Positions 6,501 through 61,500 of a stretch of DNA of 64,000 nt are shown here, piece by piece. The stretch comes from Macrostomum hystrix (lineage: Eukaryota; Animalia; Platyhelminthes), in contig CATNEN010000038.1 in assembly GCA_950097015.1 (NCBI GenBank), positions 24,304,001 to 24,368,000 on the forward strand, read 5' to 3'. The position numbers and the translations under genes are program-made. Within the stretch, counting starts at the first letter, position 1. Every line of letters starts with the position of its first letter. The notes beneath the pieces were generated by a model, which was not told the origin of the DNA, searched no databases, and worked only from the letters and a program-made list of their open reading frames with translations.

Positions 6501-8379
6501 GCTGTCAACCGGTGTCCGAGAGAGCCGGGAGTACAATAGGTGTGCAGTCCCCACCTGCTAGTGTGCTAGACACAACACCTGCACTGGCCCTTGGGTCTAG
6601 TGTCTTTAGGTGAAAATACCTAATTTTTTCTTTAGGTATTTCCTACTCAAAACTCGCCACGAACTCGAATCCGCGTCGACTCCACATAAATTTTGGTATT
6701 TTCATAAAATTTCTCCCCTTTAGGGTCTAACCCGCCAGGGCACAGATAGGTTTGACACTGCCTGACGATGAGAAAGAATTCTCACTTATAAAGATTCGAA
6801 TCTGACACAATAAAAACAATTTTTTATCCACTCTATTGACCTAAAGTTCTTCAAAGTTAAGCCAATTGCGAAGTTTCGGCAGCTATTCCGGTACCCCGTG
6901 AAGCCTTAATTATCCAAATATTTGTACTATCACTGAGCCTTGGAGATTGTCACTCGAGGACACAAACGCTCCGCCAGTCACCCTCCCCATTTGAGTCTTT
7001 GTCTTTGTACATCTGTTCAAACACCCACACCTCTACAGGCACCGCACAGGTCACGAACTGACCCTGGCGTCCACTTGCATCTGTGGTCAACGCAGCGGCG
7101 GCGGTGGTTTCATGCTGCAATGCGAACTTTGCCGTCACTGGTACCACGCTCAGTGTGTCACTCTGCCGAAGTACCTGAAGCCGAAGACACTCGCCGGAGG
7201 CGCAGCCTCAGTCTCTGCGATGCGGGCGGCACTTCGCGATTTAAAATATCTCTGCCAGGCCTGCGAGCGCGGTCGTAGACCGCGTGTTGAAACTATTCTA
7301 AGCCTGCTGTTGTCGTTGCAACGCCTGCCCTGTCCGCTACTGGCTGGCGTAGCCCTTCAATGCCTGACTGAGCGGGCAATGTCCTGGCAGGATCGGACTC
7401 ACTGTCTACTGTTGAGCAGTCCCGAACTTCGCCGAGCTCTCGTCTGTTTGGCGCGCACAATGAAATTGCAACTGCCCGATAAACTGCTGCGCCAGCTAAA
7501 CACCATGATTACAACTAGCGCTAGTGGCGCCGTCAATGCTCCTGCCGAAGCTTTAATGCCTGCTTCTAGTAGCTTGACAACTTCTGCTTCTGCTGTCGTC
7601 AACGCTGGCGCTTCTTCTTTAATCCAAGCCGGCGGTGGCGGCTCATCGGCCAGGAAGCCGCGCAAGTCACCGCTATTTCCTCGGGGGCCGGGAGCTGCCG
7701 CTGCCGCAGCCGCCGCAGCCGCAGCCGCCGCAGCAGCCGCAGCCGCTGCATCATCCGGATCGGCAGTATCCATGGGTTTGGGGAGCCTTGGCTTAGTCAG
7801 CCGAGAATCTCTAGCCATGCCTGGCTCGTCTCCTCCGTCTAATTCCATATCCGACGGTCCGTTCGGCGGCGCATCTCCGACATCGTCACTGATGCCTGCC
7901 AGGCGGCCTAGGATTGTTCTAAGCTCAGCAGCTCGATCTCAACTCGAATCGGCCATGCTAGAAGGCGACTTACTGGAGGTGTCGATGGAGGAATCGACCT
8001 GGTTGTGGCATCTGTTGCAGGCGAGCGCCCCAGATTTCGTTGCCGACTTTGATCAGGAAGAAGCTGCCATTGTTGTTAATAGACAGTTGGATTCTAGCGA
8101 TGAGGATGACGAAGCAGATGATGATGATGGTGAAGAAGAGCTTGCTGATGATTCAGACAATGAAGAAGACATGAAAAACATTGACGAAGCTGATGCTGAT
8201 GACAGCGACATTGATGCCGCCGAAGATGCTTACGGTGACGGAGATGTCTCCGATGCTTATTCAACTTCCGCCATCGCTTTGGCTCCTGTTATGCTGCCCT
8301 CGGCTGCTGCCGCTGCTGCCGCTGCTGCTTTGTCGGCTTCAAAACGACAGCCGAAGTCCTCAATGAAGCAGCAACAGCA

Positions 8380-8440
<61 letters not shown>

Positions 8441-11400
8441 AAGTATCAAAAGCAGCGTTGGCAGTCCAAAGCGAAGATTGCTCTGCAGCGCGGTCGGCAG
8501 CCAGTCAACAGACGCTCGTCCGATAGTGGCTCAGGGGCGGGTGGCAAACGGCCCGCCAGCTCCAGCGTGTCCTCCGCCGCCGCGGCATCGTCTGGCATCG
8601 TTGATAAACGACGGCGTCATGTGCGAACGCCAATGGAAGCGGTTGGTGCATTGTTTGATTGGTTTTTAATAATTGTGCAGCCGACAGCACAGCCGCAGCT
8701 GTTGCGTAGCGCATCTGAAGGCTGCGTGCGGCTGTTCAGTCCATGGACTGGGGGGACGCCACACCCACCTTCAATTACCCCAGATAATGCTTGTACTTTG
8801 TTAGCCCGGTTGCCAAAAAAAGTTGAATGGGCCACATTTTTTGGCCCACTAGTGGGCCAAAGTTTGGTTCTGAGCGGCCCACAGAAAGCCCACATTGACC
8901 CAGAAAGTGTTTAATGGCAGACACCGGGTCACACGGCGGCTCATACGGAGGCCCGTACAGGCCCGTACACGGCGGCCCACACAGGCCCATAAACGGCGGC
9001 CCTTACAGGCCCATACACGGCGGCCCATACAGGCCCGTACACGGCGGCCCATACAGGCCCATACACGGCGGCCCATTTTGGCTTGTATACACTGGCCCTT
9101 GATGGCCCATATTGGCCCACAAATACTGCCACATATACCGGCCCACATTGGCCCACACATACTGGCCCATTTTGGCCCACATATACTGCCACATATACTG
9201 GCCCATATTGGCCCACATATACTGGCCCATATTGGCCCACATATGCTGCCACATATACTGGCCCATATTGGCCCACATATACTGGCCCATATTGGCCCAC
9301 ATATGCTGGCCCATATTGGCCCACATATACTGGCCCATATTGGCCCACATACGCTGGTTCATATTGGCCCACATATGCTGGCCCATATTGGCTCACATAT
9401 ACTGGCCCATATTGGCCCACATATACTGGCCCATATTGGCCCACATATACTGACCCATATACTGGCCCATATTGGCCCACATATACTGGCCCATATTGGC
9501 CCACATATGCTGCCACATATACTGGCCCATATTGGCCCACATATACTGGCCCATATTGGCCCACATATGCTGCCACATATACTGGCCCATATTGGCCCAC
9601 ATATACTGCCACATATACTGGCCCATATTGGCCCACATATACTGCCACATATACTGGCCCATATTGGCCCACATATGCTGCCACATATACTGGCCCATAT
9701 TGGCTCACATATACTGGCCCATATTGGCCCACATATACTGGCCCATATTGGCCCACATATACTGGCCCATATTGGCCCACATATACTGGCCCATATTGGC
9801 CCACATATACTGCCACATATACTGGCCCATATTGGCCCACATATACTGACCCATATTGGCCCATATTGGCCCACATACGCTGGTTCATATTGGCCCACAT
9901 ATACTGGCCCATATTGGCCCACATATACTGGCCCATATTGGCTCACATATACTGGCCCATATTGGCCCACATATACTGACCCATATTGGCCCATATTGGC
10001 CCACATATCCCAGCCTATATTGGCCTACATATACTGGCCCATATTGGCCCACATACGCTGGCCCATATTGGCTGGTCCATATATTATAGCGCATAGGGCC
10101 AAAGTAATTACTAATTACTATAAAAAACAAGTACCTATTTCTCTTTAATACGGCTTGGCTCTTAAATATTTACTTGCCATGTAACTAATTGTGAATGGAT
10201 TGTGAATGAGCAATGCTTGTATTGCGCAAAACTTGCACAGCAACATGTGTAGGATACAAGTAGGAAACAAATTAATAGAAAGATTGTAACGCATGGATTG
10301 ATTGGTTGACTGAAAGGTTCAGTCATGTAGGACACATTTGGTTTTCATAACCACATACTCTCCGCTGCATCTATAGTCTAGGTTTTCTTCTTCGCTTCAG
10401 CAGCTGACAGATCCCGCAATGGCCGCTTACGACGAGGCAACGACTTCATAGCTTCGATAGGCGCTTCAGGGGGTGTAGGGGGCATCTCGATTGCCCAAAA
10501 CTGGGCATCGCCAGTTCGAATCTTCGGCTGGTTGCTGCGATGCCTGCCGGCCACCTGTAGCCTCTTTCTTCGACTCTCAGGCGACAGATCGGCAAACCAG
10601 GCCTCGCAGTCCGGACAACAGTGCGCCTGGAGCTCCAGTCTGTCCTCTTTGCGTCGGCAGACATGCACACAGGCCGGCCCGGAGCTTCTCTCTGGAAGCC
10701 GATTGTAATCCGCTCGAATTTCAGCCGCCGTCTTTCCTTCGAATATGCCGCCTAAGGCGTGCCGACGAACCCCGTCTCTGGGGCCTGCGGCCTCAGACCC
10801 ATCATCGCCGCACTCGCCGGGGCCCTGGGTCTCAGACCCATCATCGCCGCATCATCATCATATATATTCTCGGGATCGGGATCGGGATTGGGATATATAT
10901 ATATACTCGGGATCGAGTACCTTCAACCCTTAATCGATACTTTATCACTTTGAAACCTTCAAGACGAACAAATCAGTTACAAAATCACTGCGGGGAACAA
11001 TCGCTTAAGGATCGATATCGGCGGCATCGTTTTCGCCGGCTCCGGCGGCAACAGTGGCAGTAGCTGCGGCGCCAGCGTTGTCGCCGACAACGGAGGCACC
11101 AGCTGCCGCGGCAGTCGGGACATCGGCGGCGGTAACGGTCTGCAGTCCCCTCTGCGTACGGGCCGTGCGCCTGAAAACGCTGCCCAGTAGAGTATCCGGC
11201 AAGCGTTTGGTCTGTGTGAGAACGAAGAAAGTGAAGTAATGAAAAACTAATATTCTAACAGTTTATATACAATGTATTCCGATGCTGTAGACATGACGCT
11301 GCACTAAATCGCCCAAAATAGTAGTACAACTAGTGTAGAACAGCAATGCACATAATATTATGTACTAAAGAAAAGAAAAAGAAAAAGAAACAGTTAGTGT

Positions 11401-14400
11401 ACAGCTTACGTCCAATTTTTTCTCTAGTAGATAAGCTCGGATGGCCCGCTTTTTCGTCTCGTCCAATCCCGGCCTGTTTGGCTTGTTTGATTTTTTGCTC
11501 TGGCGCCCTTCCCAGGAAGAGCCACTGAAGTCGGCAACAGTCAGGACGCCTCGGAAAAGTGTGCGGAGCATCGTGCCGCGCAGCTTTTGGCTGGTATCCG
11601 CCGCCTTGTATGCGCTGACGGCGGCCTCAATTTTGTTTAGCTTAGTGGTGGAAACCGTCACAGTAGGGATGCTGCTTACTAAGGGCACAAGGACATCGGC
11701 ATCCGCGATGGCATGAGCGGCTGTCCGCTGAGCAGCTGACGATCGCGATAGTCCCATTGAATCTATTGCCGCTGAGATGCCCAGCTGGCACACAAATGAA
11801 GATCTGCCGGCATCGTCGGTGCTGGAGTCGATGCTAGACGGCAAAACTGTAGCGTCGTGGGTATCTGACGGAAGTACATCAGAACCAACACAGTTGCTAT
11901 CTGCAGACACAGCAGGCCCTCCGGTTGAATGCGCCATTATACTGTTGGGTAGTGCTTCCCATGTGGCGTTTAACTGCCTCAATAGTTCGTGGCCATATTG
12001 CAACGCCTGCTTGCCTGAGTCGACCATAAGTCGGGCAACTCTGTCGGCCTGCAGTGTACTGCGGCCCAGGGTGCGTATAGCGTTCGTCAAACGCTCGTTG
12101 AAATCAACGGCAGTCTGTAGGCGAGTGTCGTAGTCAGCCAGTAAGTCGTGATTCTGGGTTATTACGGCGTCTCTATCTTTGAGATCTTGAATCAGAGTCT
12201 CGTTCAGATTTTTGAGAGCCTCAAGCTCATCATTTAGGCGCCTGTTTGTTTCAATTTCTGCGTCTGTTCGCTTCTGGGCATCCTGAACGCCGCTGCGGAG
12301 CTTGTGACACTCAACTTCCAGATTTCTGCAGCGTACGCAGTCACCGTCTGGCACATTAATTGTCGTCGTGCTAAGGACGCTTCGATTACTCGAATTAGGG
12401 CGGCCTGTTGACGACGAAGCGGCGGTGGAAGCCTGGTGCACGATGCGGCCCATGGCAGACGTTGCATCCTTTCGTATTCGAAAGGGGCCTGCGGTAATAA
12501 AAGCGCGATGCTTTTTGGCGCCAATGCTGCGTCCCGTGACGACATCAACCGCCGCGCCGATAGCTCGTTGGGCAGGTACGGCCGGCGAGACAATGTTTTT
12601 TGCGCTCACAACCTGAGAATGTAGATCAGTGGCATTCAAGTGGGATCGTGGAATCCGATCATGATATCGACATGTCGGTATACTGCACACGTACATCTGC
12701 ATCTGCATGTAGGGATGCTAAAATTTCAGATTCGCTCACCTGCAGAGAATTTGAAGAGCAGTAAGTGACTACCCAGAAGCTGTCACTCTGGATAGCAGGC
12801 GCAGCGATGGCAACTGGACTAGCGGAAGCATCAGCAGGCGGAATCTTCCGCTGCTGTAGCGGAAACCGTTTAGCTTTTCGGTTCTGTTGACCATCCTCGT
12901 CAGTTACGTCTGCAGCAGCTGATGCGCTCGGCGGCAGTGGGTCTTCCGTGCACCGGACCCGCTTGGATTCAGCGCTGCACTCATCAATTGCAGCTGCAGA
13001 CCTCTTCAGCTGGTCTGTGTGGTCTGCGTGGCCGAAGTTGCTGTTGGCGTCCAAGTCGACATTCTTGCGTACAGCGGGTTTCCTTGGCTTGGCCGTCTGA
13101 GCCGCTTTTTCGGAGGCCTTCTGCTGCTTAGCCGTGGCCTTGGCTTATATTTCATTGTGATATTAAACAAAGTTACATCATTTGCGCTGTGCAACTTGGA
13201 CTTTAAAGTCATAAAAAACGTATTCGAATGCTAGTGAAAAAACAATCCATTTATCTAGCCATTGACAAGCATACGCATTGGCTATTTAAATCCTTTTGCA
13301 TGAGCCAATATGGGCCAGTATATGTGGGCCAATATGGGCCAGCATATGTGAGCCAATATGGGCCAGTATATGTGGGCCAATATGGGCCAGCATATGTGAG
13401 CCAATATGGGCCAGTATATGTGGGCCAATATGGGCCAGCATATGTGAGCCAATATGGGCCAGCATATGTGAGCCAATATGGGCCAGTATATGTGGGCCAA
13501 TATGGGCCAGCATATGTGAGCCAATATGGGCCAGTATATGTGGGCCAATATGGGCCAGCATATGTGAGCCAATATGGGCCAGTATATGTGGGCCAATATG
13601 GGCCAGCGTATGTGGGCCAATATGGGCCAGTATATGTGGGCCAATATGGGCCAGTATATGTGGGCCAATATGGGCCAGCGTATGTGGGCCAATATGGGCC
13701 AGTATATGTGGGCCAATATGGGCCAGTATATGTGGGCCAATATGGGCCAGCGTATGTGGGCCAATATGGGCCAGTATATGTGGGCCAATATGGGCCAGCG
13801 CATGTGGGCCAATATGGGCCAGTATATGTGGGCCAATATGGGCCAGCATATGTGAGCCAATATGGGCCAGTATATGTGGGCCAATATGGGCCAGTATATG
13901 TGGCAGTATATGTGGGCCAATATGGGCCAGTATATGTGGGCCAATATGGGCCAGTATATGTGGGCCAATATGGGCCAGTATATGTGGGCCAATATGGGCC
14001 AGTATATGTGGCAGTATATGTGGGCCAATATGGGCCAGTATATGTGGCAGTATATGTGGGCCAATATGGGCCAGTATATGTGGCAGTATATGTGGGCCAA
14101 TATGGGCCAGTATATGTGGGCCAATATGGGCCAGTATATGTGGCAGTATATGTGGGCCAATATGGGCCAGTATATGTGGGCCAATATGGGCCAGTATATG
14201 TGGGCCAATATGGGCCAGTATATGTGGCAGTATATGTGGGCCAATATGGGCCAGTATATGTGGCAGTATATGTGGGCCAATATGGGCCAGTATATGTGGG
14301 CCAATATGGGCCAGTATATGTGGCAGTATATGTGGGCCAATATGGGCCAGTATATGGGCCAGTATATGTGGGCCAATATGGGCCAGTATATGTGGCAGTA

Positions 14401-15018
14401 TATGTGGGCCAATATGGGCCAGTATATGTGGCAGTATATGTGGGCCAATATGGGCCAGTATATGTGAGCCAATCTGGGTCAGCATATGTGGGCCAATATG
14501 GGCCAGCGCATGTGGGCCAATATGGGCCAGCATTCTTGGGTCACAATAGTGGGCCGAAAGTGGGCTGAATTGGACATTCGGCTCGTTATATGGGCCAATT
14601 ATTAATGGGCTCTTAATGGGCCTATGTGGGCCACTTGTTGGCCCATCTATATGTGGGCCGAAACTGGGCAAAAAGCCCGCAAATTGGGCTAAAAGGCACT
14701 GGCCCACTGTTGGCCCACTGAAAAGCCCATACTTGCATGAAAAAAGCCCTTTGGTTTGGCAACCGGGTAGGAATCATTTTTATTCTGTCACATTTCACAT
14801 TGCAGACTTTTGGATTAACGTCCTTTTACCAGCTATTTCCCAATATTCTCAAGTTCAGAAGGGTTGTCTCTTTATTTTCCCAAGCCATATTCCTAGCATT
14901 TATCCATCATTCTTATGCTTGTTTCTAGGCAGCTGAACGACGCCGCAAGCACTATACTCAGCAGTCCTGGCAATCCACAGTTCAGACAAACACATCTACC
15001 GCTCCGATTGCTAAGCAA

Positions 15019-15092
<74 letters not shown>

Positions 15093-15926
15093 ACGACGGC
15101 GAGGCTGGAACGACGATTGCGCCGCTCCAAATTGTCGTCAACCCGCTGGCAATCAGGTTTGGTTTATGACCACTTGTTAGCATTGGGTTTTATCCCATTG
15201 TTTATAATCCCTTTAGAGATTGTTTTTGGATTTTTATCGTATTCCAAATCCTTGTCCTTTAGGAGTTTTATCCTATTGTTTCCACTCGGGGTCTTTTGGG
15301 ATTTTTATCTCACTGTTCCCACTCCGAGTCTTTTGGGTTTTTTCCCACTGTTCCCACTCCGTACTTTTATCGCAGTATTCTCACTCCGAGTAAGTTAGGA
15401 TTTTTTATCTGATCTACCCCGATCCTAGGGTCTTTCTGTAGTTTTTCCCATTTTTAAGCATGAATAGTTTGCATTTCTCCAGGTCAATTGGGTCGAATGT
15501 GACCAATGCCAGCAGTGGTTTCATTGGATCTGTGTTGGCGTCTTATCCGATGACGAACTGGCTGACTCCTACCTGTGCCCCACCTGTCTGCAATCTGGAA
15601 ATGCCAGCGCCGATCAACCACCTGATGAAGCCGACGATGTTAAATACGACACTAAAGAATTTTCGCCGCATCGTCCGGCTGAATTTCCAGTCAAAGCGAC
15701 GGACGCTGACGTGATCGACGAAGATGACGACGACGAGGATGACGACAGCGATATCGAGGAGTTGCTGCCAACACCGGACGGTGAGGAAGAAGACGACGAA
15801 GAAGATGACGACCCGGAGGATTCGATGGCGCAGAAGGACGCGCCAGAGGATGATGACGTCATTGACGAGGACAACGATGACGAGGAAGCAAACACATCGG
15901 GGGATGTGGCATTGGCCGACGCTTGA
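587..15926 (+). CDS. KDM5: KDM5/Lid-like (JARID1) protein, divergent: JmjN, degenerate JmjC, PLU-1-like region, PHD2, PHD3; about 9 exons (approx. 587-1070, 1675-2285, 2420-3101, 3645-3972, 4874-5330, 5859-6193, 7039-8641, 14929-15156, 15483-15926)
   Basis: JmjN-like [10 protein letters not shown]...[21 protein letters not shown]; VEAEFWRL; [12 protein letters not shown]; [11 protein letters not shown]; PHD2 CICG...[15 protein letters not shown]...YLCQAC followed by [19 protein letters not shown]...[14 protein letters not shown] and LEGDLLEVS; PHD3 CAAPNCRQP|[19 protein letters not shown]...YLCPTC. GT-AG junctions keep frame where checked. Confidence 0.88.
1085..1610. repeat. Intronic minisatellite, about 59-60 bp unit
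   Basis: Repeated AGATCCTGTCCAATCAGATCGATCGACTCTCTAACCCCCACCAGTCATTCCCTCCTC. Confidence 0.9.
3350..3505 (-). mobile_element. tRNA-derived SINE family A, partial copy
   Basis: Reverse complement resembles 28840-29040 (B-box GGTTCGATTCCCGACT; GCTTCAGTTCACCCAGCTGTTAAATGGG; AGTCCATGGAC). Confidence 0.7.
4040..4815. repeat. Intronic minisatellite, about 21 bp unit (CTGCCATTTTCCAAAGCTAGG and CTACACTGCCATTTCCCTAAT variants)
   Basis: Direct tandem repetition; explains spurious ORFs 4586-4844. Confidence 0.92.
5365..5556. repeat. Intronic minisatellite (AATTCGTTACTTTTCTT-type unit)
   Basis: About 10 tandem copies. Confidence 0.9.
6224..6620 (+). mobile_element. tRNA-derived SINE-like element
   Basis: Head GGCGGATAGCTCAGTCAGTAAGG...GGGTTCGACTCCCGACC (A/B boxes) followed by CAGTCTACTCAGCTGCAAATGAGTACC, related to the core of the 28840 copy. 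Confidence 0.7.
8672..8797 (-). mobile_element. SINE family A fragment adjacent to the TIR element
   Basis: Reverse complement closely resembles 28981-29100 (GCATTATCTGGGGTAATT...CCCCCAGTCCATGGACTGAACAGCCG...GCTGTGCTGTCGGCTGC). Confidence 0.8.
8930..10080 (+). repeat. Left subterminal arrays: short 24-bp ACACGGCGGCCCATACAGGCCCAT-type array, then 24-bp GCCCATATTGGCCCACATATACTG array with 12-bp CCACATATACTG inserts
   Basis: Tandem units read directly; they generate the [16 protein letters not shown] pseudo-ORFs. Confidence 0.95.
10378..10851 (-). CDS. CtIP/Sae2 (RBBP8/COM1) C-terminal domain-like module carried by the transposon; open frame lacks an in-frame ATG upstream of the domain (5'-truncated or a spliced exon)
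   Basis: [81 protein letters not shown] aligns by eye with CtIP [63 protein letters not shown] (CxxC, RHR, FW). The frame is open to 10851. Confidence 0.8.
   Translation of the reverse strand, partial: CGDDGSETQGPGECGDDGSEAAGPRDGVRRHALGGIFEGKTAAEIRADYNRLPERSSGPACVHVCRRKEDRLELQAHCCPDCEAWFADLSPESRRKRLQVAGRHRSNQPKIRTGDAQFWAIEMPPTPPEAPIEAMKSLPRRKRPLRDLSAAEAKKKT
11005..13140 (-). CDS. Spliced transposon-borne gene: N-terminal beta-rich segment, coiled coil and C-terminal BEN-like domain (exons about 13140-12740, 12612-11410, 11211-11005; start unresolved)
   Basis: Canonical phase-0 introns 12739-12613 (CAG|GTGAGC...CATTCTCAG|) and 11409-11212 (GAC|GTAAGC...CACACAG|) join three ORF-track fragments. 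CxxC plus heptad segment [14 protein letters not shown]...; BEN-like [54 protein letters not shown]|[21 protein letters not shown]. Confidence 0.72.
13296..14535 (-). repeat. Right subterminal array: same 24-bp unit in inverted orientation (CAGTATATGTGGGCCAATATGGGC)
   Basis: Reverse complement of the left-array unit. Confidence 0.95.
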
Positions 15927-26318: not shown

Positions 26319-26747
26319 ATAGAGTAAAATAATGAGAAAAAAACCATTTTTTACAAAAGAGACGAATTAGTTAAGGGGGTATACGATTGGAGTTTTAAGT
26401 CTTTGTCCGAATATAATTTTGCGTTTTTTTCACATTGAGTATTTCCTTAAGGGCAGTACCAGTTTGTCTTCTGTTTCGCATATTTGTCTTCTTGCTTTTA
26501 TCAGTAAAATATTGTGTGGCTGTGTGTGCTCTTTTGTCTTCGACAATCATTCATTAGATCCAAACTCTAGTGATAGAAATATGAAACAGTATTAAAAAAC
26601 ACAAAGCAGGCGTCACAGTCCAGATGTTAGTCGTACACAGGTCTCAGTGCTGATAAGGAACGCCCGAACGATTGTATATTATACATGTGTGGCACTTCGG
26701 TAAAACAGTAAATCTTCGTATCAAAGACTCCATAACGAAAGCAAGCT

Positions 26748-27539
26748 ATGCCTCCGAGCTTCACTCTTTCCTGTGCAGTCTTTGCCGCTCTCGCCGTAAG
26801 CTCTATCCTCGCTTCCTCGATCGTCTGCACCAAGGAGTATCGTCCAGTTTGCGGAGTGGACGGCAGCACTTATCCGAACGCTTGCTTCGCGGAGGCGGCT
26901 GGAGTTGAGATTCGTCACAATGGGCCTTGCATCTCATTGTGCTTAAATATCTATCGTCCAGTGTGTGGAGTTGATGGCAAAACTTATCCTAATGATTGCT
27001 TCGCTAAGACAGCCGGGGTTGAACTTCAACACCTAGGCGAGTGCCCTGCTGAGCTGTGCCTCAATATTTACCAGCCTGTGTGCGGTGTTGACGCCAAGAC
27101 CTACTCAAATGAGTGCTTCGCCAGGGCTGCCGGAGTTGCAGTCAAGCACGTTGGCGAGTGTCCATCCAATAAGAACATTTGTATCAATATCTACCAGCCT
27201 GTGTGCGGTGTTGACGCCAAGACCTACTCAAATGAGTGCTTCGCCAGGGCTTCCGGAGTTGCAGTCAAGCACGTTGGCGAGTGTCCATCCAATAAGAACA
27301 TTTGTATCAATATCTACCAGCCTGTGTGCGGTGTTGACGCCAAGACCTACTCAAATGAGTGCTTCGCCAGGGCTGCCGGAGTTGCAGTCAAGCACGTTGG
27401 CGAGTGTCCATCCAATAAGAACATTTGTATCAATATCTACCAGCCTGTGTGCGGTGTTGACGCCAAGACCTACTCAAATGAGTGCTTCGCCAGGGCTGCC
27501 GGAGTTGCAGTCAAGCACGTTGGCGAGTGTCCGAAGTAG
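26748..27539 (+). CDS. Secreted multi-domain Kazal-type serine protease inhibitor (6 domains, intronless)
   Basis: Hydrophobic signal peptide; six C-x7-CGVD-x2-TY-x-N-x-C...G-x-C units; the last domains are near-identical 123-bp repeats; AATAAA at about 27606. Confidence 0.92.
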   Translation: MPPSFTLSCAVFAALAVSSILASSIVCTKEYRPVCGVDGSTYPNACFAEAAGVEIRHNGPCISLCLNIYRPVCGVDGKTYPNDCFAKTAGVELQHLGECPAELCLNIYQPVCGVDAKTYSNECFARAAGVAVKHVGECPSNKNICINIYQPVCGVDAKTYSNECFARASGVAVKHVGECPSNKNICINIYQPVCGVDAKTYSNECFARAAGVAVKHVGECPSNKNICINIYQPVCGVDAKTYSNECFARAAGVAVKHVGECPK

Positions 27540-42367: not shown

Positions 42368-45007
42368 TCAGTTAATGAACTGCTTACTGTTCTTTCTACT
42401 TGTCCAGTTGCCAACCATTAGGGGCACAAAATTCATGGTAGAAGTCTTAGACCAATTTTTAACTTCATCGTGGAATTTATTGCCGCGACAACTACCGAAG
42501 GCCGAGGTCGAGTGGGCCGCAGTGTTTGACGTAGTCACTGGGGCAACTGCCGGAGGTCTCTTAGTCCTACTTGTCTGATGCCTTACATTGGCACTGTTGG
42601 GTGTAACCACTTGAGTAACTCCTGCGCTGACACGCCAGTCCAACACACCATCCAGTGGTCGAATTTTTCGCAGAAAATTTGTCAACTCGCCGCTGCTGCC
42701 GTATCTATAACAGCTCGGCTCGAAATCTCGGTAAAAAAACTCATTCGGATTATCTTTCGGGCAGTGCGTAGGCCGTCTCGATGATCGCGACTGCTGCGGC
42801 ATCGGTCGCTGTTGCTCTAGGACCCGTCCATCGTAGCGTACCTGTTGCTGGTCGTCATACTGCTGTTGCTGCTGTTTTTGCCTTCGGTGTGGAATCAACC
42901 CGCGCAGTCGTTTGTTGCTCTCATTGCACCTCAGTGCGTTGTTTTCGTTTGCCGCAGATTCACTTTCTTTTTTCTCGAACTCGCTAGGAATTTCTTGCGA
43001 CTCCTCGGCTCCGCTCTCGACGCCATTGCCACCTTCGACATCAGCTCCGCCCACGACTCCGCTTTCCGCTTCGCTATCTTCAACAACCTCGCCTCTGTAT
43101 TCTTCCCTGCTTTCATCTGCGCTCTCCGCTTCGCGATCTCGATCGTCAATGACTTCTTCTTCCACTTCTGAGATTTTCCTGCTGCTTTGCCGATTCGCAT
43201 CAGTGCTCTCTTGACTGCTTTGACTCTGGACTTCGCTGCCAGCTTGACTGTTTCGATGCTGGAGTCCACTGCTGGGTCGGCTGCTTAGTCGCTGGTAATC
43301 GCTGCCCACTCGACTACTTTTTCTCTGGATCTCGACGCTGGCATAACCTCCATCACTGCTTGCCTCGCTGCCTTCACTCTCGATTGGACTTATTTGCCGC
43401 TGGACTTCGCCGCTAGGTCGACTGCTTTGCCGCTGGACTCTGCTGCTGGGTCGACTGCTACGCCGCTGGACTTTGCCGCTAGGTCGACTGCTACGCCGCT
43501 GGACTTCGCCGCTTGGTCGACTGCTACGCCGCTGGACGTCGCCGCTTGGTCGACGGCTACGCCGCTGGACTTCGCCGCTTGGTCGACTGCTACGCCGCTG
43601 GACTTCGCCGCTTGGTCGACTGCTACGCCGCTGGACTTCGCCGCTTGGTCGACTGCTACGCCGCTGGACGTCGCCGCTTGGTCGACTGCTACGCCGCTGG
43701 ACTTCGCCGCTTGGTCGACTGCTACGCCGCCGGACTTCCTCGCTGTGTCGACTGTTTTGACGCTGAGCGTCACTGCTCCCCACTCGACTTCTATGCCGTT
43801 TTTCTCTACTTAAGGCTCGACTGCTTTGCCTCTTAGCCTCTCTGCCGCTATTCCGCTGGACTGCATAGCTTAAATTAGAGCTCCGTTGACTATCCTCACT
43901 ACTGGAATTGCTGCCATGGTAACTGCCTTCGATCTCGGATATACTGCTTTGACGATAAATGTCTTTGCCGTATATACCACTATACCACTTGACCTTGATG
44001 CGGTCATCAAGACTTCCTCCACTGTCGCTTTCGCTGTCCCGATCACTACCGTCACTCAATGCTGAACTGCTCCGTCGATGGGCCTCGCTGCGCACTAGAC
44101 TGCTTTGACGCTGTACTTTGTTGCTGGGACGACTGCTTTGCCACTGTACTTTGTTAATGCGACGACTGCTTTGCCGACGGGCTTCAGTTTCATATCGAGC
44201 AATTGGGCGCTGGGTTTCAGTGCCATTTCGTACACTTTGCCTATGGGTTTCAGTGCCATTTCGTACACTTTGCCTATGGGTTTCAGTGCCATTTCGTACA
44301 CTTTGCCTATGGGTTTCAGTGCCATTTCGTACACTTTGCCTATGGGTTTCAGTGCCATTTCGTACACTTTGCCTATGGGTTTCAGTGCCATTTCGTACAC
44401 TTTGCCTATGGGTTTCATTTTCGAGTCGTCTGCTTTGCCGATAGGCTTCTTGTCCGCTTAGTCGCTGAGTGCTCCGTCTATCACCTTCACTGACGCCATG
44501 ACTGACTCTCCGTTTACTATCCCTAACGGATTGAATGCCCATGCTATCGATGTCACTGACTTCTTCAATGTCCAGGTAATCACCTTCACTGCCAAATTGT
44601 GCGGTCCGGCTATAGTCTTCACTATGTGCTTGTGTGTTGCGGTGATAGCCATCACTTCTGGCTAGACTGCTGACGCCTTCCTTGTCTTGTTTGCTGCTGA
44701 CTTGACTGCCTGCCTGCCGGCCTTCTTCAATACTAGTTATACTTTCCTGGCGCTTGCTTTGAAGGCCTCGTTGAACGCCCACAGGCTTGCCTTTAGTGTC
44801 GTAGTGACTGACGCCATCAGGGTCTATAACTTCACCATGATTCCAGCCGACTGGCTCATCAAGCACACGGTTGCAGATCGTGTTCCACAGGTCTTGCTGG
44901 AAGCGCCGCTTGCATTGGTTAATGTCCGGTTCCATGGCTCTTAAATTGACGCCCAGATCCACTGGGAACATGTCGCGAATTCGGCATCGACACGCCGCCC
45001 AGTGCAT
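42368..45007 (-). CDS. Intronless 879-aa Ser/Arg-rich low-complexity protein of unknown function with 11-aa repeats
   Basis: Long ATG-initiated open frame with non-repetitive N- and C-termini; 33-bp repeats ETHRQSVRNGT and VQRRSSRPSGE. Confidence 0.7.
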   Translation of the reverse strand: MHWAACRCRIRDMFPVDLGVNLRAMEPDINQCKRRFQQDLWNTICNRVLDEPVGWNHGEVIDPDGVSHYDTKGKPVGVQRGLQSKRQESITSIEEGRQAGSQVSSKQDKEGVSSLARSDGYHRNTQAHSEDYSRTAQFGSEGDYLDIEEVSDIDSMGIQSVRDSKRRVSHGVSEGDRRSTQRLSGQEAYRQSRRLENETHRQSVRNGTETHRQSVRNGTETHRQSVRNGTETHRQSVRNGTETHRQSVRNGTETHRQSVRNGTETQRPIARYETEARRQSSRRINKVQWQSSRPSNKVQRQSSLVRSEAHRRSSSALSDGSDRDSESDSGGSLDDRIKVKWYSGIYGKDIYRQSSISEIEGSYHGSNSSSEDSQRSSNLSYAVQRNSGREAKRQSSRALSREKRHRSRVGSSDAQRQNSRHSEEVRRRSSRPSGEVQRRSSRPSGDVQRRSSRPSGEVQRRSSRPSGEVQRRSSRPSGEVQRRSRRPSGDVQRRSSRPSGEVQRRSSRPSGKVQRRSSRPSSRVQRQSSRPSGEVQRQISPIESEGSEASSDGGYASVEIQRKSSRVGSDYQRLSSRPSSGLQHRNSQAGSEVQSQSSQESTDANRQSSRKISEVEEEVIDDRDREAESADESREEYRGEVVEDSEAESGVVGGADVEGGNGVESGAEESQEIPSEFEKKESESAANENNALRCNESNKRLRGLIPHRRQKQQQQQYDDQQQVRYDGRVLEQQRPMPQQSRSSRRPTHCPKDNPNEFFYRDFEPSCYRYGSSGELTNFLRKIRPLDGVLDWRVSAGVTQVVTPNSANVRHQTSRTKRPPAVAPVTTSNTAAHSTSAFGSCRGNKFHDEVKNWSKTSTMNFVPLMVGNWTSRKNSKQFIN

Positions 45008-55500: not shown

Positions 55501-58500
55501 CTGGACCTTCAAGGGCTACAACAGGTGGAACTAGGGCACCATCGCCTAATCTGTCAACCAATCAGTCACCACCCAACGCTGTTAGCATTCAGGCGCTGCC
55601 AAAAAAATTCAGGGGGTATAAAACGGGCGGCAATATTGCTTGGTAGTCCAACTGCCTTCCTCAGCTTCCTCAGAGGTTTGGCAGTTCCTCACCTTGAACT
55701 GCCCGGGCTCTGTGAACCGTTGCATATTCGGCTCCGTTCTCACAGCGTCCTCCAGTGACGTAAGAAACATCTGCTGAAATTGCAAAATCTCTTCCGTTGT
55801 TTTGGTCAACTGTTCCAGCTCCTCGTATTTGGGCAAGCCGAGCTGTCTCATTGGCAGCAGATAGGTTTGCAGAAGAAAGTGTAGGTAGCCAACAAAAGTC
55901 CGCTCAGTGTCCAACAATTCAAAGATGCCCCGGCGCAGTCGCTCTTGACTAGGCAATTGCGATTGGTCGTGCAGCTCTGAACCGTCGCGAGATTGGTCAG
56001 ACAAATCCGAGTCTCGATTGCGATTGGCTGAGACTGACACACCGGAAAATGCCTGCCGAGAGAAATTTATTGAGGCTTGTTATTGGCGAATCCAGAAATA
56101 AAGTGCATTGGCTGCAGGATCTTTTAGAAGGGATTAGGAAGTTCCTGTTAATCTTTCAGTGATCATAATGCAATACCACCTGGCTCTTGATCAAAGATTT
56201 GCCAACTTGCCTAGATACCACCTGGTCCTTCACACCGATTTATAAAAAGGGTTCCCGTAGTGACCCCAAAAACTACAGACCCATAAGCGTGCTGCCTGCC
56301 CTGGCTCGCCTGTTTGCCTCACTTATCTATGAAAAGCTAGAAACTCATATTCGCACCCTCGACTTGCTTTCAGCCAGTCAAATAGGAAATAGAAAGGGCT
56401 ACCGAACTTCAGACCACATTGCCACTCTCTTGACGTTGATCCACAACAAAAAGCGTCGCAAAAGACCATTTCACTTAGTGTTCTTTGACTTAAAAAGCGC
56501 ATTTGACATGGTCCACCATCCAACACTTTTCCAACGACTTAGGGAGTTAAAGGTCAGCCCAGAAATAATCGAAGCAATACAAGCATGTACTCAGGAGCTA
56601 AATTCCAACTGAAGATCTCAGATGGCCAAGCAACTAAGGCAAGGAGCATAACAAATGGAGTAAGACAAGGCTGTCCCCTATCCCCTCTACTCTTCTCACT
56701 CTATATAGATCCTTTGAGCACAATGCTAAGGGATTCATTTCGCAGCGACACCTTCATTAAAGATGAACAAATCAACAACTTGCTATACTGCGATGATTTT
56801 GTGATCTTTGGAGAGAATCCTCGAGAGTTGCAGAAGGGCCTCGATAAAGTGTCAGAATTTTGTCAGAGCCACAAGCTAGAAATCAATATGCAAAAAACTA
56901 AGGTTATTAGCTGTTGCCCTGACCCATCAAAGACGGCTAACAAACTATTTCTGCAGGGACAACTGTTAGATAGCGTCAAAGAATGGAAATATCTTGGCTT
57001 TCACATCAATGCTAAAGGAACCGTGGATTCCCATGCCACAGAGATTAACAAAAAATGTGGATATCCTATTCTTCTCTTAAGGAAATTAGCCAGCCATGGG
57101 GCGGTCAGATACAATCAGCTCATGCTGTACTGCACAGCAATGATAGAAAGCATAGCTCTGTACGCCTCTGAGGCCTGGGGGGCTTTTGTCTCGTGGAACC
57201 TGGGTCCTTGGGACCGCTGTCTTTTTGAAAGAGTAAACATCAGGTGCTGTAAAGCCATACTACAAGTCAGCCAAAATACGGATGGCAACGGGGCCCGCTC
57301 GGAGTTAGGCAGATTGCCTTTATTATACAACATCCAGAAAAGAAGCATTTCGTACTGGGCCTCCATAACAAGCCGGCCGGACTCCATAATTTCCAAGTTA
57401 TTGGCGGACCAAACATACAGTGATTTTGGAATCAAAGCAAAGACCAACAATGACGTTATGCTGAACTGCAGAGGCATTAGTCCTGCAAAAGCAATTGGAA
57501 ACCACAGGAAAAATTTCGTTTCTCAGTTCGATACCCATTGGAGACAAAGGACACAGAACTCAAGCAAGCTAAGTCACTTCTATTACTCCTTCAAGCAATA
57601 TTATTCAGCCGAAAAATATTTACAACAAATATACAACCCGGAGTGGAGACGTACCAAATCCTCGTTTAGACTAGGAAACCATAAGCTAGCTTGCGAAACA
57701 TTGCGAACTGCGAGACCGAAAATTCCGTATGTAAATAGATTATGTAGTAAGTGCAAAACAGAAGTTGAAAACGAGGTCCACTTCCTTTTTAAGTGCACTT
57801 GGAATAAATATAGCGCAGCACGTTCGAAATTTGAGACGGAAGTTTCTGGGAAAACCCCCAATTTCATATCCTTAACAGCAGAAGAAAAATCTAACTACAT
57901 AATGGCTCAAGACGATAGGGAAACCGCTGAAGCTTTAGCAAAATACATCATAGAAATATCTAAAATAAGGGAACAGCTGCCCTGAGACTACGAGATCTTA
58001 CTAGCATTCAACAATAGATATTTCATATTTTGTTTTATCCCTGCCGTCCCTTGTGTTTTTACTGCTCTTATTTTTAATACCTTTGCTTTCCCTTCCCAGC
58101 TCGATATTTGATTCCTACTAAACTTCGCTTTTTATGTTGCTTTTCGTTGTTCATTTAAATGTGTTGTTAAAAAAAATATAATAAAAAAAATCAGCACCCA
58201 TAGATGGCGTGCGCGTTTTAATAATAATAATAATAATAACACTAACAATTACTACCCGATTTTTTACCTGATATTAACTTATTAACAAGGTTTATTTAGC
58301 ATATTATACGAGCGTATGTGTTCCATGATGCATTAGTAATTTACCGTGTCATTTAAAATAGGTTGACTCGGTTTTGAGGGCGTCTGCACCTGCGACATTT
58401 GCATCGCAGCAAACTGCTGCTGCTGCTGTTGTAGCAGCTTCTGTTGCTGCTGCTGCTCCGAGGATGACAGTGGCAACGATTGCGACGGCGGTGGCAACGA

Positions 58501-61500
58501 CTGCAGCTGCTGATTTATCGGACCCTTGCACGACCAAACCAGTAGAGTCAAACTCGAGCTCTGCTCAAACAGATCCTCAATGTAGCCCATGTCCAACCGG
58601 CGAACAGGACTGTCGTTCACCATGACGATTTCGTCTCCAATGTTTAATCCGGCCTCTTCAGCGGCGCTGCCTGGCTCAACCTCGGCTACGAAGACGCACA
58701 GATCGTCCCGATGCTCGACATCTTCGCACAGTTCAGCCTCGACAGTCATGCCGTAGTGCCGGTTGCCAGCCTTTTTGTGGATGACGCATTCGTAGACCCA
58801 CTTTTCGCACAGTTCAGCTAGTTGAAACTCCTGCAGATGTTTTTCATTTCGATCTAGAAATAAACTTATGTTGATCGTGTTTAAAATCTGGAAATAAACA
58901 AAATCACTTTGTTATAATCATTATATATATATCGGAAGTCACTAAAATGACGCCTGTACATGAACATCATGCTCTTTGTATTAAATCGTAGCTAATCTAA
59001 ACGTTTGTAAAACTAATGTACGTGCATCATCGATTTTGTTTTCCTGTTTCCGCGCGCATCTTATAGAACATCACACCAACCTCACTCCACCAGCAACCCC
59101 ACTCTGTGTACTCATTGCACGATACACATGCGTGTACGAAAATAGCACAAAGATCACTGACCAATCGGTGAATCGTGTGTGAGTTTATTTAGGTCGAATT
59201 GTGAACTCACAACTGCTAACACGTGTCTAATAGTGTGAAAATACTCGAACTCCAGTGAAATAACGGTTGTTTTACATGGATATTTTTGTGTAGGTTTACT
59301 CTCTCAGACAATTAGCGTATAATGATTGAGCTGTAGATAATTGAAGTGAAACATATCAACTGTGCTTCTGTACCAGCAGCTAAAACTATTGGTTTTCATG
59401 CCGTGTACAAATTAGATATCGCCTGGCCGTCTGGTCATTCGGTAATTCTGTCCCTCTGTCATTCTGTCCCTCTGTCATTCTGTCCCTCTGTCATTCTGTC
59501 CCTCTGTCATTCTGTCCCTCTGTCATTCTGTCCCTCTGTCATTCTGTCCCTCTATCATTCTGTCCCTCTATCATTCTGTCCCTCTGTCATTCTGTCCCTC
59601 TGTCACTCTGTCCCACTGTCATTCTGTCCCTCTGTCATTCTGTCCCTCTATCATTCTGTCCCTCTATCATTCTGTCCCACTGTCATTCTGTCCCTCTGTC
59701 ATTCTGTCCCTCTGTCATTCTGTCCCTCTGTCATTCTGTCCCTCTATCATTCTGTCCCTCTGTCATTCTGTCCCTCTATCATTCTGTCCCTCTCTCATTC
59801 TGTCCCTCTGTCATTCTGTCCCTCTATCATTCTGTCCCTCTGTCATTCTGTCCCTCTATCATTCTGTCCCTCTGTCATTCTGTCCCACTGTCATTATGTC
59901 CCTCTATCATTCTGTCCCTCTGTCATTCTGTCCCTCTGTCATTCTGTCCCTCTGTCATTCTGTCCCACTGTCATTCTGTCCTTCTGTCATTCTGTCCCTC
60001 TGTCATTCTGTCCCTCTGTCATTCTGTCCCTCTATCATTCTGTCCCTCTGTCATTCTGTCCCTCTATCATTCTGTCCCTCTGTCACTCTGTCCCACTGTC
60101 ATTCTGTCCCTCTGTCATTCTGTCCCTCTGTCATACTGTCCCTCTGTCATTCTGTCCCTCTGTCATTCTGTCCCTCTGTCATTCTGTCCCTCTGTCATTC
60201 TGTCCCTCTGTCATTCTGTCCCTCTGTCATTCTGTCCCTCTGTCATTCTGTCCCACTGTCATTCTGTCCCTCTGTCATTCTATCCCTCTATCATTCTGTC
60301 CCACTGTCATTCTGTCCAAATGCTCTAAAATTATCTACACACACTGCAGACACTATTAAAATGCTACAGACGGGTTTATAAAGGTGTGCGAGTTAAAAGC
60401 TAACAGTAATCTACAGGCGGAGATAAAGGTATAAGCTATCTACCACTCAAGAGATGTGAAGCAACCGGTTTCTAAAGCTACTTACTCGAAATATCCACTG
60501 ACGTTACATAATCTTCGTGGAAAATATACAGATGGCATAGCGAAGATAAAAAAGCAACACTACTTTTTGAGACCTACAATGAGCTTGCTGCAAATGCTGA
60601 TAGACTGATCACAGTCCGGACACACCAGCGTCTGTTGAAATTGTGTTTCGCGGTCGCGATCGGTTAGTTAAGATTTTCTAAAACTTCTGTTTTTAACTAT
60701 AAAAGTGAAATAAGCATATTATAGTGTGCACTTTTACCGGAATGTAAAAGTTGCAAGTTAGCAGAAAATTAACAGTATAAATATTGTCTTTAATCTTCAT
60801 AAGTTAACTATATGCAGCTCATGAAGTCGTTAGTACTAAACGCTCTTCTACCTAAAAAGCTGTAGAAAACTGGTGTCTTACTTCGAGTAGTAGTATAAAC
60901 GTCGAAGTTATTGGATTATTGTGCAATTTTATCAGTACGCACATCAGAAAGACATAAAATTTGCAGGTCAGATAATTAGGTATCTTACTAGTACTAAATT
61001 CAATTAGTGTCGTTATTGAACAGACTTATTAATACTGGTCAAGAGTTTATTTAGTGCTTTAATTAGGATAACTGAAGTAATCTTGATGCGTTTCTTAAAC
61101 TAATTTTTTATTATTAAAGTTTATAAAGCCTCCAGAGCTTGAAAAAAAATTGTTTGGCATTGGTCCGTTGATAAGCGTTAATGAGTGTTATTTTTTCCTA
61201 ACTTTTAGTGGTCTTACATTGAACTTTTAGGCTTTTAGATCTTTTTACTTAAATTTCAAGTTTTTTCCTAATTTAACGACTGCATGGTGTGGTCCGTCAG
61301 TTAATTTCTAAGTTTCTCGAAGTTTTTTTTATCTCCGGAAATGTGTAAATCGGGGAAGCCTTCTCTTCCTTCCGGATTTATTTTTACGATAACGACAATC
61401 GTTTTTGCGTAAATGCGTAAGTGTTTAAATACTCATATTATTCAAATAAAATTAAAGAATGGTGTAAACTAGGTGTATGTCACGTTTTATTAAAGGCTTC

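What the first reader, a model, noticed from the sequence alone, without database searches (positions are those of the whole stretch)
10378..10851. Transposon-borne CtIP/Sae2 C-terminal domain with core motifs kept but CDK and ATM/ATR sites altered
Seen: [18 protein letters not shown]...RHR...FW..MP preserves the CxxC and RHR motifs. At the position of the CDK site (human PPNT847P) the sequence reads KIRTGD (no TP). At the PIKK site (FPST859Q) it reads MPPTPP (no TQ). No N-terminal CtIP oligomerisation domain is present in this frame. Known: T847/T859 phosphorylation controls CtIP stimulation of MRE11 endonuclease. Inference: either a cell-cycle-independent MRN activator or a dominant-negative mimic that modulates host end resection.
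Basis: partly seen in the sequence, partly recalled or inferred. Interest (0 to 1): 0.85.

Follow-up and report, generated by a model that had tools for sequence, protein, structure and literature searches.

The report
Transposon carrying captured CtIP tail
A jumping gene in a flatworm carries a long-conserved copy of the tail of the host DNA-repair protein CtIP, which would likely help repair the break the element leaves when it jumps, but the missing control sites are also missing in the host's own CtIP and no protein product has been shown.

Summary
The frame at 10378-10851 (minus strand) is a real CtIP/Sae2 C-terminal domain. It lies in a 5,963-bp element with 13-bp inverted ends and a TAG target duplication, inside a KDM5 intron. 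Its closest relative is Macrostomum lignano CtIP (58-62% identity; tree support 99/97). What remains is still unusual. Silent sites are near saturation against the host while 28 of 37 core residues are kept, which points to long purifying selection. The frame has no upstream in-frame ATG and lies 153 bp behind the stop of a spliced BEN-like gene. Some sister copies have lost the domain. Best reading: a captured accessory module that would act on MRN at the element's excision break; translation is unshown. No transposon-borne CtIP turned up in four literature searches or in this scan's notes.

The parts
8805..14767 (.). 5,963-bp non-autonomous DNA transposon (internal deletion derivative, no transposase seen) in a KDM5 intron
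   Evidence: Perfect 13-bp inverted ends and TAG on both flanks; the only 13-bp inverted pair between the two flank regions tested; host intron is 321 bp without it
8802..8804 (.). left copy of 3-bp target site duplication (TAG)
14768..14770 (.). right copy of 3-bp target site duplication (TAG)
8805..8817 (+). left terminal inverted repeat, begins CCC
14755..14767 (-). right terminal inverted repeat
8945..10083 (+). left subterminal array of 12/24-bp units
   Evidence: 71 of 76 forward core motifs of the element lie here
13304..14530 (-). right subterminal array, same unit in opposite orientation
   Evidence: 88 of 90 reverse core motifs lie in the right arm
10378..10851 (-). open frame of 157 codons; codons 46-155 (10387-10716) are the CtIP/Sae2 C-terminal domain; first 46 codons not detectably host-like; no in-frame ATG before codon 124
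10805..10850 (-). short repeated unit at the start of the frame; about twice the neighbouring depth in runs, so other copies likely carry extra units
   Evidence: inference from contig depth
11005..11211 (-). last exon of BEN-like gene, stop at 11007-11005
   Evidence: spliced joint 11410/11211 in contigs of X2 and X5; open frame after splicing
11410..12612 (-). large exon of BEN-like gene (coiled-coil-like region, BEN-like domain at its end)
   Evidence: Pfam BEN 16.4-16.5 bits, below cutoff 23.2; Atlas 0.92 to BEN clusters, family on 15-33% of members
12740..13143 (-). first retained exon piece of BEN-like gene; its 5' part is missing in this copy
   Evidence: GT..AG joint in X3; loose ends at 13143-13145; no match to that upstream sequence in the window
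13145..13146 (.). breakpoint of the internal deletion of this copy
   Evidence: X1 contigs branch here into the window form and a longer form
10144..10149 (-). ATTAAA, the only polyadenylation-like hexamer in 10080-10378; none of AATAAA/ATTAAA type between the BEN stop and the CtIP frame
   Evidence: X5 cover stops at 10151, weak hint only
6995..15926 (+). 3' exons of the host KDM5-like gene (exon ends 8641; next exons 14929-15156 and 15483-15926), opposite strand to the element genes
   Evidence: JmjC and PHD hits; exons join without stop

Best explanation
A DNA transposon of a Macrostomum flatworm carries a copy of the last ~110 codons of a CtIP gene behind its own BEN-like gene, and this likely captured tail would, if translated, dock on RAD50-MRE11 without needing CDK phosphorylation (as predicted for the host's own CtIP tail) and likely help process the double-strand break left when the element excises. 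Shown: the element, the domain, its kinship to host CtIP, the shared loss of T847-P and T859-Q, and an excess of silent over replacement change. Inferred: capture from the host lineage; selection acting while on the element; translation as a second cistron (trans-splicing with the leader's AUG, or a splice from an upstream exon or ATG into one of the weak in-frame acceptors); a monomeric zinc- and DNA-binding module that stimulates MRN on hairpin or protein-blocked ends and favours resection and gap repair from the sister chromatid, which would restore the element at the donor site.
For: Element anatomy. Sister to M. lignano CtIP at 99/97 in a 22-row tree. 28 of 37 residues and 17 of 17 core residues identical to host while 14 of 20 flanking third positions differ and the 51-nt core has 6 differences (hand count on the host-gene loose ends); neutral simulation at 0.3 changes per site leaves the core unchanged in 1 of 20,000 runs and an unbroken 111-codon frame in 6%. 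Frame identical in X1, X2, X3 and X5, so the stops before it are not an assembly error. A spliced contig runs from the BEN exons through the stop into the start of the frame (X5 record 27). M. lignano has operons with spacers peaking near 100 bp (PMC8629364, passages) and flatworm leaders end in AUG (PMC12582326, passages). The isolated human tail is a monomer that binds DNA and probably zinc (PMC11317151, passages); a 15-residue Ctp1 tail peptide stimulates Mre11 without CDK phosphorylation, and Ctp1 has a non-phosphorylatable residue at the T847 position (bioRxiv 2023.08.05.552090 and 2023.03.25.534200, passages).
Against: No in-frame ATG; all 8 ATGs in 10700-11010 are in other frames, and the 5 in-frame AG acceptors have only 6-8 pyrimidines in 18 nt against 13-15 for the two real introns. 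No joint or leader into the frame in any of 8 runs laid (contigs drop rare forms). One sister derivative in X1 leaves the frame at 10507 (codon 115 onward kept only) and the organism C copy leaves it at 10658, before CxxC. The silent divergence could have built up in a donor gene (paralog or other species) before a recent capture. The 37-codon block was found because it is the most alike, which inflates the core figure. No transposase was seen, so the excision chemistry is unknown. The single-sequence fold was low confidence (pLDDT 47).
Confidence: 0.45

Rival explanations
1. Passive cargo: the CtIP piece was picked up like a Pack-element fragment from an already diverged CtIP copy, or was once used and is now an untranslated relic in the 3' UTR of the BEN-like gene. 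It makes no protein today.
For: No in-frame ATG, three stops directly upstream, weak acceptors; continuous cover from the BEN stop across the frame with no joint; two kinds of sister copy lack the domain; first 46 codons are not host-like (374 of 2000 shuffles score as well).
Against: Only one host-type CtIP sequence showed up in the runs and in the protein searches, and it is far diverged at silent sites; the frame stays open over 111 homologous codons without frameshift.
Confidence: 0.37
2. Decoy: the tail is made but, lacking the tetramerising N-terminus, occupies the CtIP site on RAD50 and damps resection, protecting element ends or favouring end joining at insertion sites.
For: No N-terminal coiled coil; the isolated human tail binds but cannot bridge DNA (PMC11317151); other RAD50-binding motifs inhibit MRN by competing at this site (bioRxiv 2023.03.25.534200); the third zinc-ligand Cys is Ala in the element and Cys in the host.
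Against: Short Ctp1 tail peptides stimulate rather than block; 9 of 38 other CtIP relatives also lack that Cys, so its loss does not mark a dead domain.
Confidence: 0.12
3. One reading: the element evolved specific loss of CDK and ATM/ATR sites to free the module from cell-cycle control.
For: 38 of 38 anchorable non-Macrostomum relatives keep S/T-P at the T847 position, so the loss is rare; element (G-D, with a one-residue insertion) and host (Q-A) differ in the residues they carry there, so two losses are not excluded.
Against: Host CtIP lacks the same two sites; element and host are sisters and the next relative P0004 keeps T-P at T847, so one loss before capture is the simplest history.
Confidence: 0.06

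Closest known systems
Macrostomum lignano CtIP-like protein BOX15_Mlig004387 (PAA54340.1, PAA88737.1)
   Same: 58-62% identity over the tail; identical 17-residue CxxC core; no T847-P; T-P at T859 position; same basic C-terminal end
   Different: Host has an N-terminal coiled coil and a ~200-residue linker, and keeps the third zinc Cys; the element copy has neither, has a one-residue insertion after RHR, and has no start codon of its own
CtIP/Ctp1/Sae2/Com1 family C-terminal domain (Pfam PF08573)
   Same: CxxC...RHR module and the F-[WF] RAD50-docking tail
   Different: Stand-alone tail on a mobile element; CDK site absent (kept in 38 of 38 other relatives counted)
Schizosaccharomyces pombe Ctp1 C-terminal peptide
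   Same: Natural precedent for a CtIP tail without the CDK site that stimulates Mre11 on its own (passages)
   Different: Ctp1 is a full host gene; its partner Rad50 has a matching change, which could not be checked for Macrostomum
CACTA/EnSpm (CMC) DNA transposons and Pack-type derivatives
   Same: Short terminal inverted repeats, 3-bp target duplication, long subterminal repeat arrays, a DNA-binding accessory gene (arrays and accessory gene as family traits are recalled, not from a call)
   Different: Ends begin CCC, not CAC/CA as given in PMC12730594 and PMC6004678; no transposase in this copy, so the superfamily is not established
TET/JBP-carrying fungal DNA transposons (PMC12730594)
   Same: DNA transposons that carry a host-type enzyme gene as cargo, thought to help the element (abstract and passages)
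   Different: Cargo here is a DNA-repair cofactor domain in an animal, and it is a gene fragment

Membership tests
CtIP/Sae2 C-terminal domain (PF08573) | Profile match at the curated cutoff | tested here: met
   20.5 bits vs 19.8 for residues 41-157; 19.6 for the whole frame; borderline, backed
CtIP/Sae2 C-terminal domain (PF08573) | CxxC and RHR motifs | tested here: met
   C79xxC82, R103-H104-R105
CtIP/Sae2 C-terminal domain (PF08573) | Third Cys of the C3H1 zinc site (human C835 per PMC11317151) | tested here: not met
   Ala101; host Cys; Cys in 29 of 38 other relatives
CtIP/Sae2 C-terminal domain (PF08573) | CDK site S/T-P four residues before the F of F-[WF] | tested here: not met
   G-D in element, Q-A in host, S/T-P in 38 of 38 others
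CtIP/Sae2 C-terminal domain (PF08573) | PIKK site S/T-Q eight residues after that F | tested here: not met
   T-P in element and host; S/T-Q in 29 of 38, S/T-P in 6 of 38 others
Full-length CtIP/Ctp1 orthologue | N-terminal tetramerisation coiled coil | tested here: not met
   Absent; stops directly upstream
Full-length CtIP/Ctp1 orthologue | Binds RAD50 and stimulates MRE11 endonuclease | not testable with these tools
   No host RAD50/MRE11 sequence in hand; needs biochemistry
Cut-and-paste DNA transposon (TIR class) | Terminal inverted repeats and target site duplication | tested here: met
   13-bp perfect TIR, TAG duplication
Cut-and-paste DNA transposon (TIR class) | Several related copies in the genome | tested here: inconclusive
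CACTA/EnSpm (CMC) | 5'-CA(C) termini | tested here: not met
   Ends begin CCC against the termini given; CCC-ended animal members are recalled only
CACTA/EnSpm (CMC) | 2-5 bp target site duplication | tested here: met
   3 bp (range)
CACTA/EnSpm (CMC) | DDE transposase with C(2)C and H(3-4)H motifs | not testable with these tools
   Not in this copy; the missing internal segment could not be retrieved (no genome held)
BEN domain (PF10523) | Profile match at the curated cutoff | tested here: inconclusive
   16.4 bits vs 23.2, domain split by an intron; Atlas 0.92, 10 of 10 named best hits agree

The most novel reading that the evidence does not exclude
An animal DNA transposon family has made the MRN-activating tail of CtIP its own accessory protein, expressed as the second cistron of a trans-spliced element operon, and uses it to steer repair of its excision breaks into resection and gap repair that restores the donor copy; in passing it records that Macrostomum CtIP itself has shed the CDK switch.
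Probability: 0.25. Interest if true: 0.85.

Novelty: new variant of a known kind. Interest (0 to 1): 0.5.

Why it matters
How cut-and-paste elements bias repair of their donor site towards copy gain is a long-standing question, usually put down to passive use of host repair. An element that carries its own MRN cofactor would be a direct, testable case of active control. Separately, host Macrostomum CtIP lacks the T847-P site that 38 of 38 other relatives counted here keep, which predicts a Ctp1-like, CDK-independent RAD50 interface in a regeneration model animal. If the frame is an untranslated relic, the find is an ordinary gene capture with an interesting cargo.

Tried and rejected
No whole genome was held, so copies, empty sites and the transposase could not be searched directly. 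Word-based protein searches: nothing at 86-275 aa for the frame, one hit among longer proteins, nothing at 247-788 aa for the BEN-like exon. PDB sequence searches gave only chance ribosomal hits. Single-sequence fold too poor to use; no fold search was run. No complex prediction was run, as no host RAD50 was in hand. Metagenome scan gave 2 loci, both chance matches in prokaryotic contigs; viral scan none. Assembly error as cause of the upstream stops: rejected, no indels there in X1, X2, X3, X5. Loss of the third Cys as sign of decay: rejected, 9 of 38 relatives lack it. Similarity of the first 46 codons to the host linker: not significant. Parts without cover in single runs (for example X13 below 10658 apart from its loose end, X15, X16) were not used as evidence. 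In the 42-row tree the unnamed 92-aa protein P0015 joined the element on a very long branch (95/64) and broke the element+host pair; it was left out with 19 other long or near-copy rows, so its place is unresolved. Literature searches that found no transposon-borne CtIP/Sae2: (listings only; most subscription papers and Repbase reports are not covered).

Full report
Observation. It is a CtIP/Sae2 C-terminal domain: Pfam SAE2 19.6 bits for the whole frame and 20.5 for the last 117 residues against a cutoff of 19.8; ESM Atlas first hit a SAE2 cluster at 0.92; 42 phmmer hits at E<=0.001 among 1.84 billion proteins, of which 20 were looked up and several are named RBBP8 or Ctp1 C-terminal. One hit (P0034) is a repeat-driven false match.

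The element. The frame lies inside 8805-14767, bounded by a perfect 13-bp inverted repeat beginning CCC and by TAG on both sides; this is the only 13-bp inverted pair between the two flank regions tested. Arrays of a 12/24-bp unit fill about 1.1-1.2 kb at each end in opposite orientation. The element sits antisense in an intron of a KDM5-like gene; the flanking exons join without a stop and the intron is 321 bp without the element. No transposase was seen. The anatomy resembles CACTA/CMC elements, but the CA(C) terminus given in two papers (passages) is not met, so the superfamily is open. Upstream of the CtIP frame on the same strand is a spliced gene with a BEN-like domain; both introns are seen as joints in run contigs and the spliced frame is open for 603 codons. 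Contigs of run X1, which may be the source of the window, branch at 13145 into the window form and a longer form, and at 10507 into a form that skips most of the interior. So this copy is an internal deletion derivative of a small, nearly identical family; depth 317-514 against 92 for the host CtIP contig hints at several copies but is not a count.

The host comparison. The best protein hit is Macrostomum lignano BOX15_Mlig004387, whose longer model has an N-terminal coiled-coil-like stretch, a long low-complexity linker and the SAE2 tail: the usual CtIP layout, so I take it as the host orthologue (inference). Element and host are sisters at 99/97 in a tree of 22 rows (20 of 42 rows left out as long branches or near copies; in the full tree the long-branched unnamed P0015 fell between them). 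Anchoring on the conserved F, the host has Q-A where CtIP relatives have T-P, the element has G-D, and both have T-P where most relatives have T-Q. Among 41 other hits, 38 could be anchored: 38 of 38 have S/T-P at the CDK position, 29 of 38 S/T-Q and 6 of 38 S/T-P at the PIKK position, 29 of 38 the third zinc Cys (P0015, P0029, P0034 dropped). The CDK-site loss is thus rare but belongs to the Macrostomum lineage, and the PIKK change is common. S. pombe Ctp1 is a published precedent for a CtIP without the CDK site, with a matching change in Rad50 (bioRxiv 2023.08.05.552090, passages).

Selection. Runs X1, X2, X3 and X5 hold a second sequence that matches 10576-10626 with 6 differences and whose loose ends translate to the host residues. 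By hand count over those 37 codons, 14 of 20 flanking third positions differ, and the 6 core differences fall in 17 codons with identical residues if that contig encodes P0002 there; 28 of 37 residues are the same. The third-position distance is about 0.96. Neutral evolution of the element copy over 0.3 changes per site leaves the core unchanged in 1 of 20,000 simulations, over 0.1 in 2%. So most of the path from host gene to element copy was under purifying selection. Limits: the block was found because it is the most alike, and the selection may have acted in a donor paralog or species before capture. The organism C copy differs at 3 places in the frame (2 silent, 1 replacement) and then leaves the frame at 10658, before CxxC.

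Expression. The frame has no in-frame ATG before codon 124; all 8 ATGs between 10700 and 11010 are out of frame, and the in-frame acceptors are weak. A contig of X5 is spliced at the second BEN intron and runs through the stop to 10817, and cover goes on to 10151; these runs are not on record as RNA, and contigs show no strand or single transcript. None of the 8 runs laid (of 16 listed) shows a joint into the frame. The 153-bp spacer fits M. lignano operons, whose spacers peak near 100 bp (PMC8629364, passages), and flatworm leaders end in an AUG that can start translation (PMC12582326, passages), so a second cistron is possible but unshown.

Mechanism. The isolated human tail is a monomer that binds DNA and probably one zinc, and cannot bridge DNA (PMC11317151, passages). 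The Ctp1 tail peptide alone stimulates Mre11 (cited; the original paper was not read). Sae2-stimulated MRX cuts hairpin and protein-blocked ends (PMC11662671, search listing). I therefore commit to a captured, phosphorylation-independent MRN cofactor that would process the element's excision break and favour gap repair (0.45), against an untranslated relic (0.37), a RAD50 decoy (0.12) and element-specific escape from kinases (0.06). That excision leaves such ends and that gap repair raises copy number is recalled general knowledge, not tested here.

Novelty. Host-gene cargo on DNA transposons is known (TET/JBP in fungi, PMC12730594). Four full-text searches (listings only) showed no transposon-borne CtIP/Sae2, and five look-ups in this scan's notes showed none on other DNA; two notes describe CtIP-tail duplications by ordinary gene duplication in other genomes. 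Supplements were not read.

Noticed in passing
P0002/P0003 (M. lignano BOX15_Mlig004387): The host CtIP itself lacks the CDK site kept by 38 of 38 other relatives counted; predicts a Ctp1-like apolar contact with RAD50 in this flatworm.
   Followed up: partly
window 13100-13144: A contig of X1 at depth 1080 matches here with 7 differences in 45 bases: a more abundant related element family seems to exist in the genome.
   Followed up: no
window 13133-13145: Three different upstream continuations of the BEN-like gene appear in runs (X1/X2/X3, X5, X4/X13), pointing to further 5' exons and alternative splicing in the longer element.
   Followed up: partly
P0015 (unnamed, 92 aa, 910-bp contig): Short CtIP-tail-like protein without T-P that groups with the element copy on a long branch; possibly another element-type copy in another organism.
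   Followed up: partly
window 10080-13300, runs X4, X9, X10, X11: Four wastewater metatranscriptome runs of one study hold 52-73% of the words of this flatworm element; X4 carries an unspliced intron, so DNA carry-over is possible. Unexplained.
   Followed up: partly
window 56169-57985 (+): Non-LTR retrotransposon reverse transcriptase in two overlapping frames (Pfam RVT_1), inside an intron of a minus-strand RhoGEF/PDZ gene (55612-58911).
   Followed up: no
window 26736-27539 (+): Single-exon protein with six Kazal domains, the last ones from a 123-bp tandem repeat at 99% identity.
   Followed up: no
window 42368-45007 (-): 879-codon Ser/Arg-rich frame with 33-bp repeats and no Pfam match.
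   Followed up: no
window 18051-40291 (+): Closely spaced host genes on one strand: RGS-domain, RIC3, RWD/Prp3_C (RWDD2-like) and TMEM187; many introns of the window are filled by long minisatellites.
   Followed up: no
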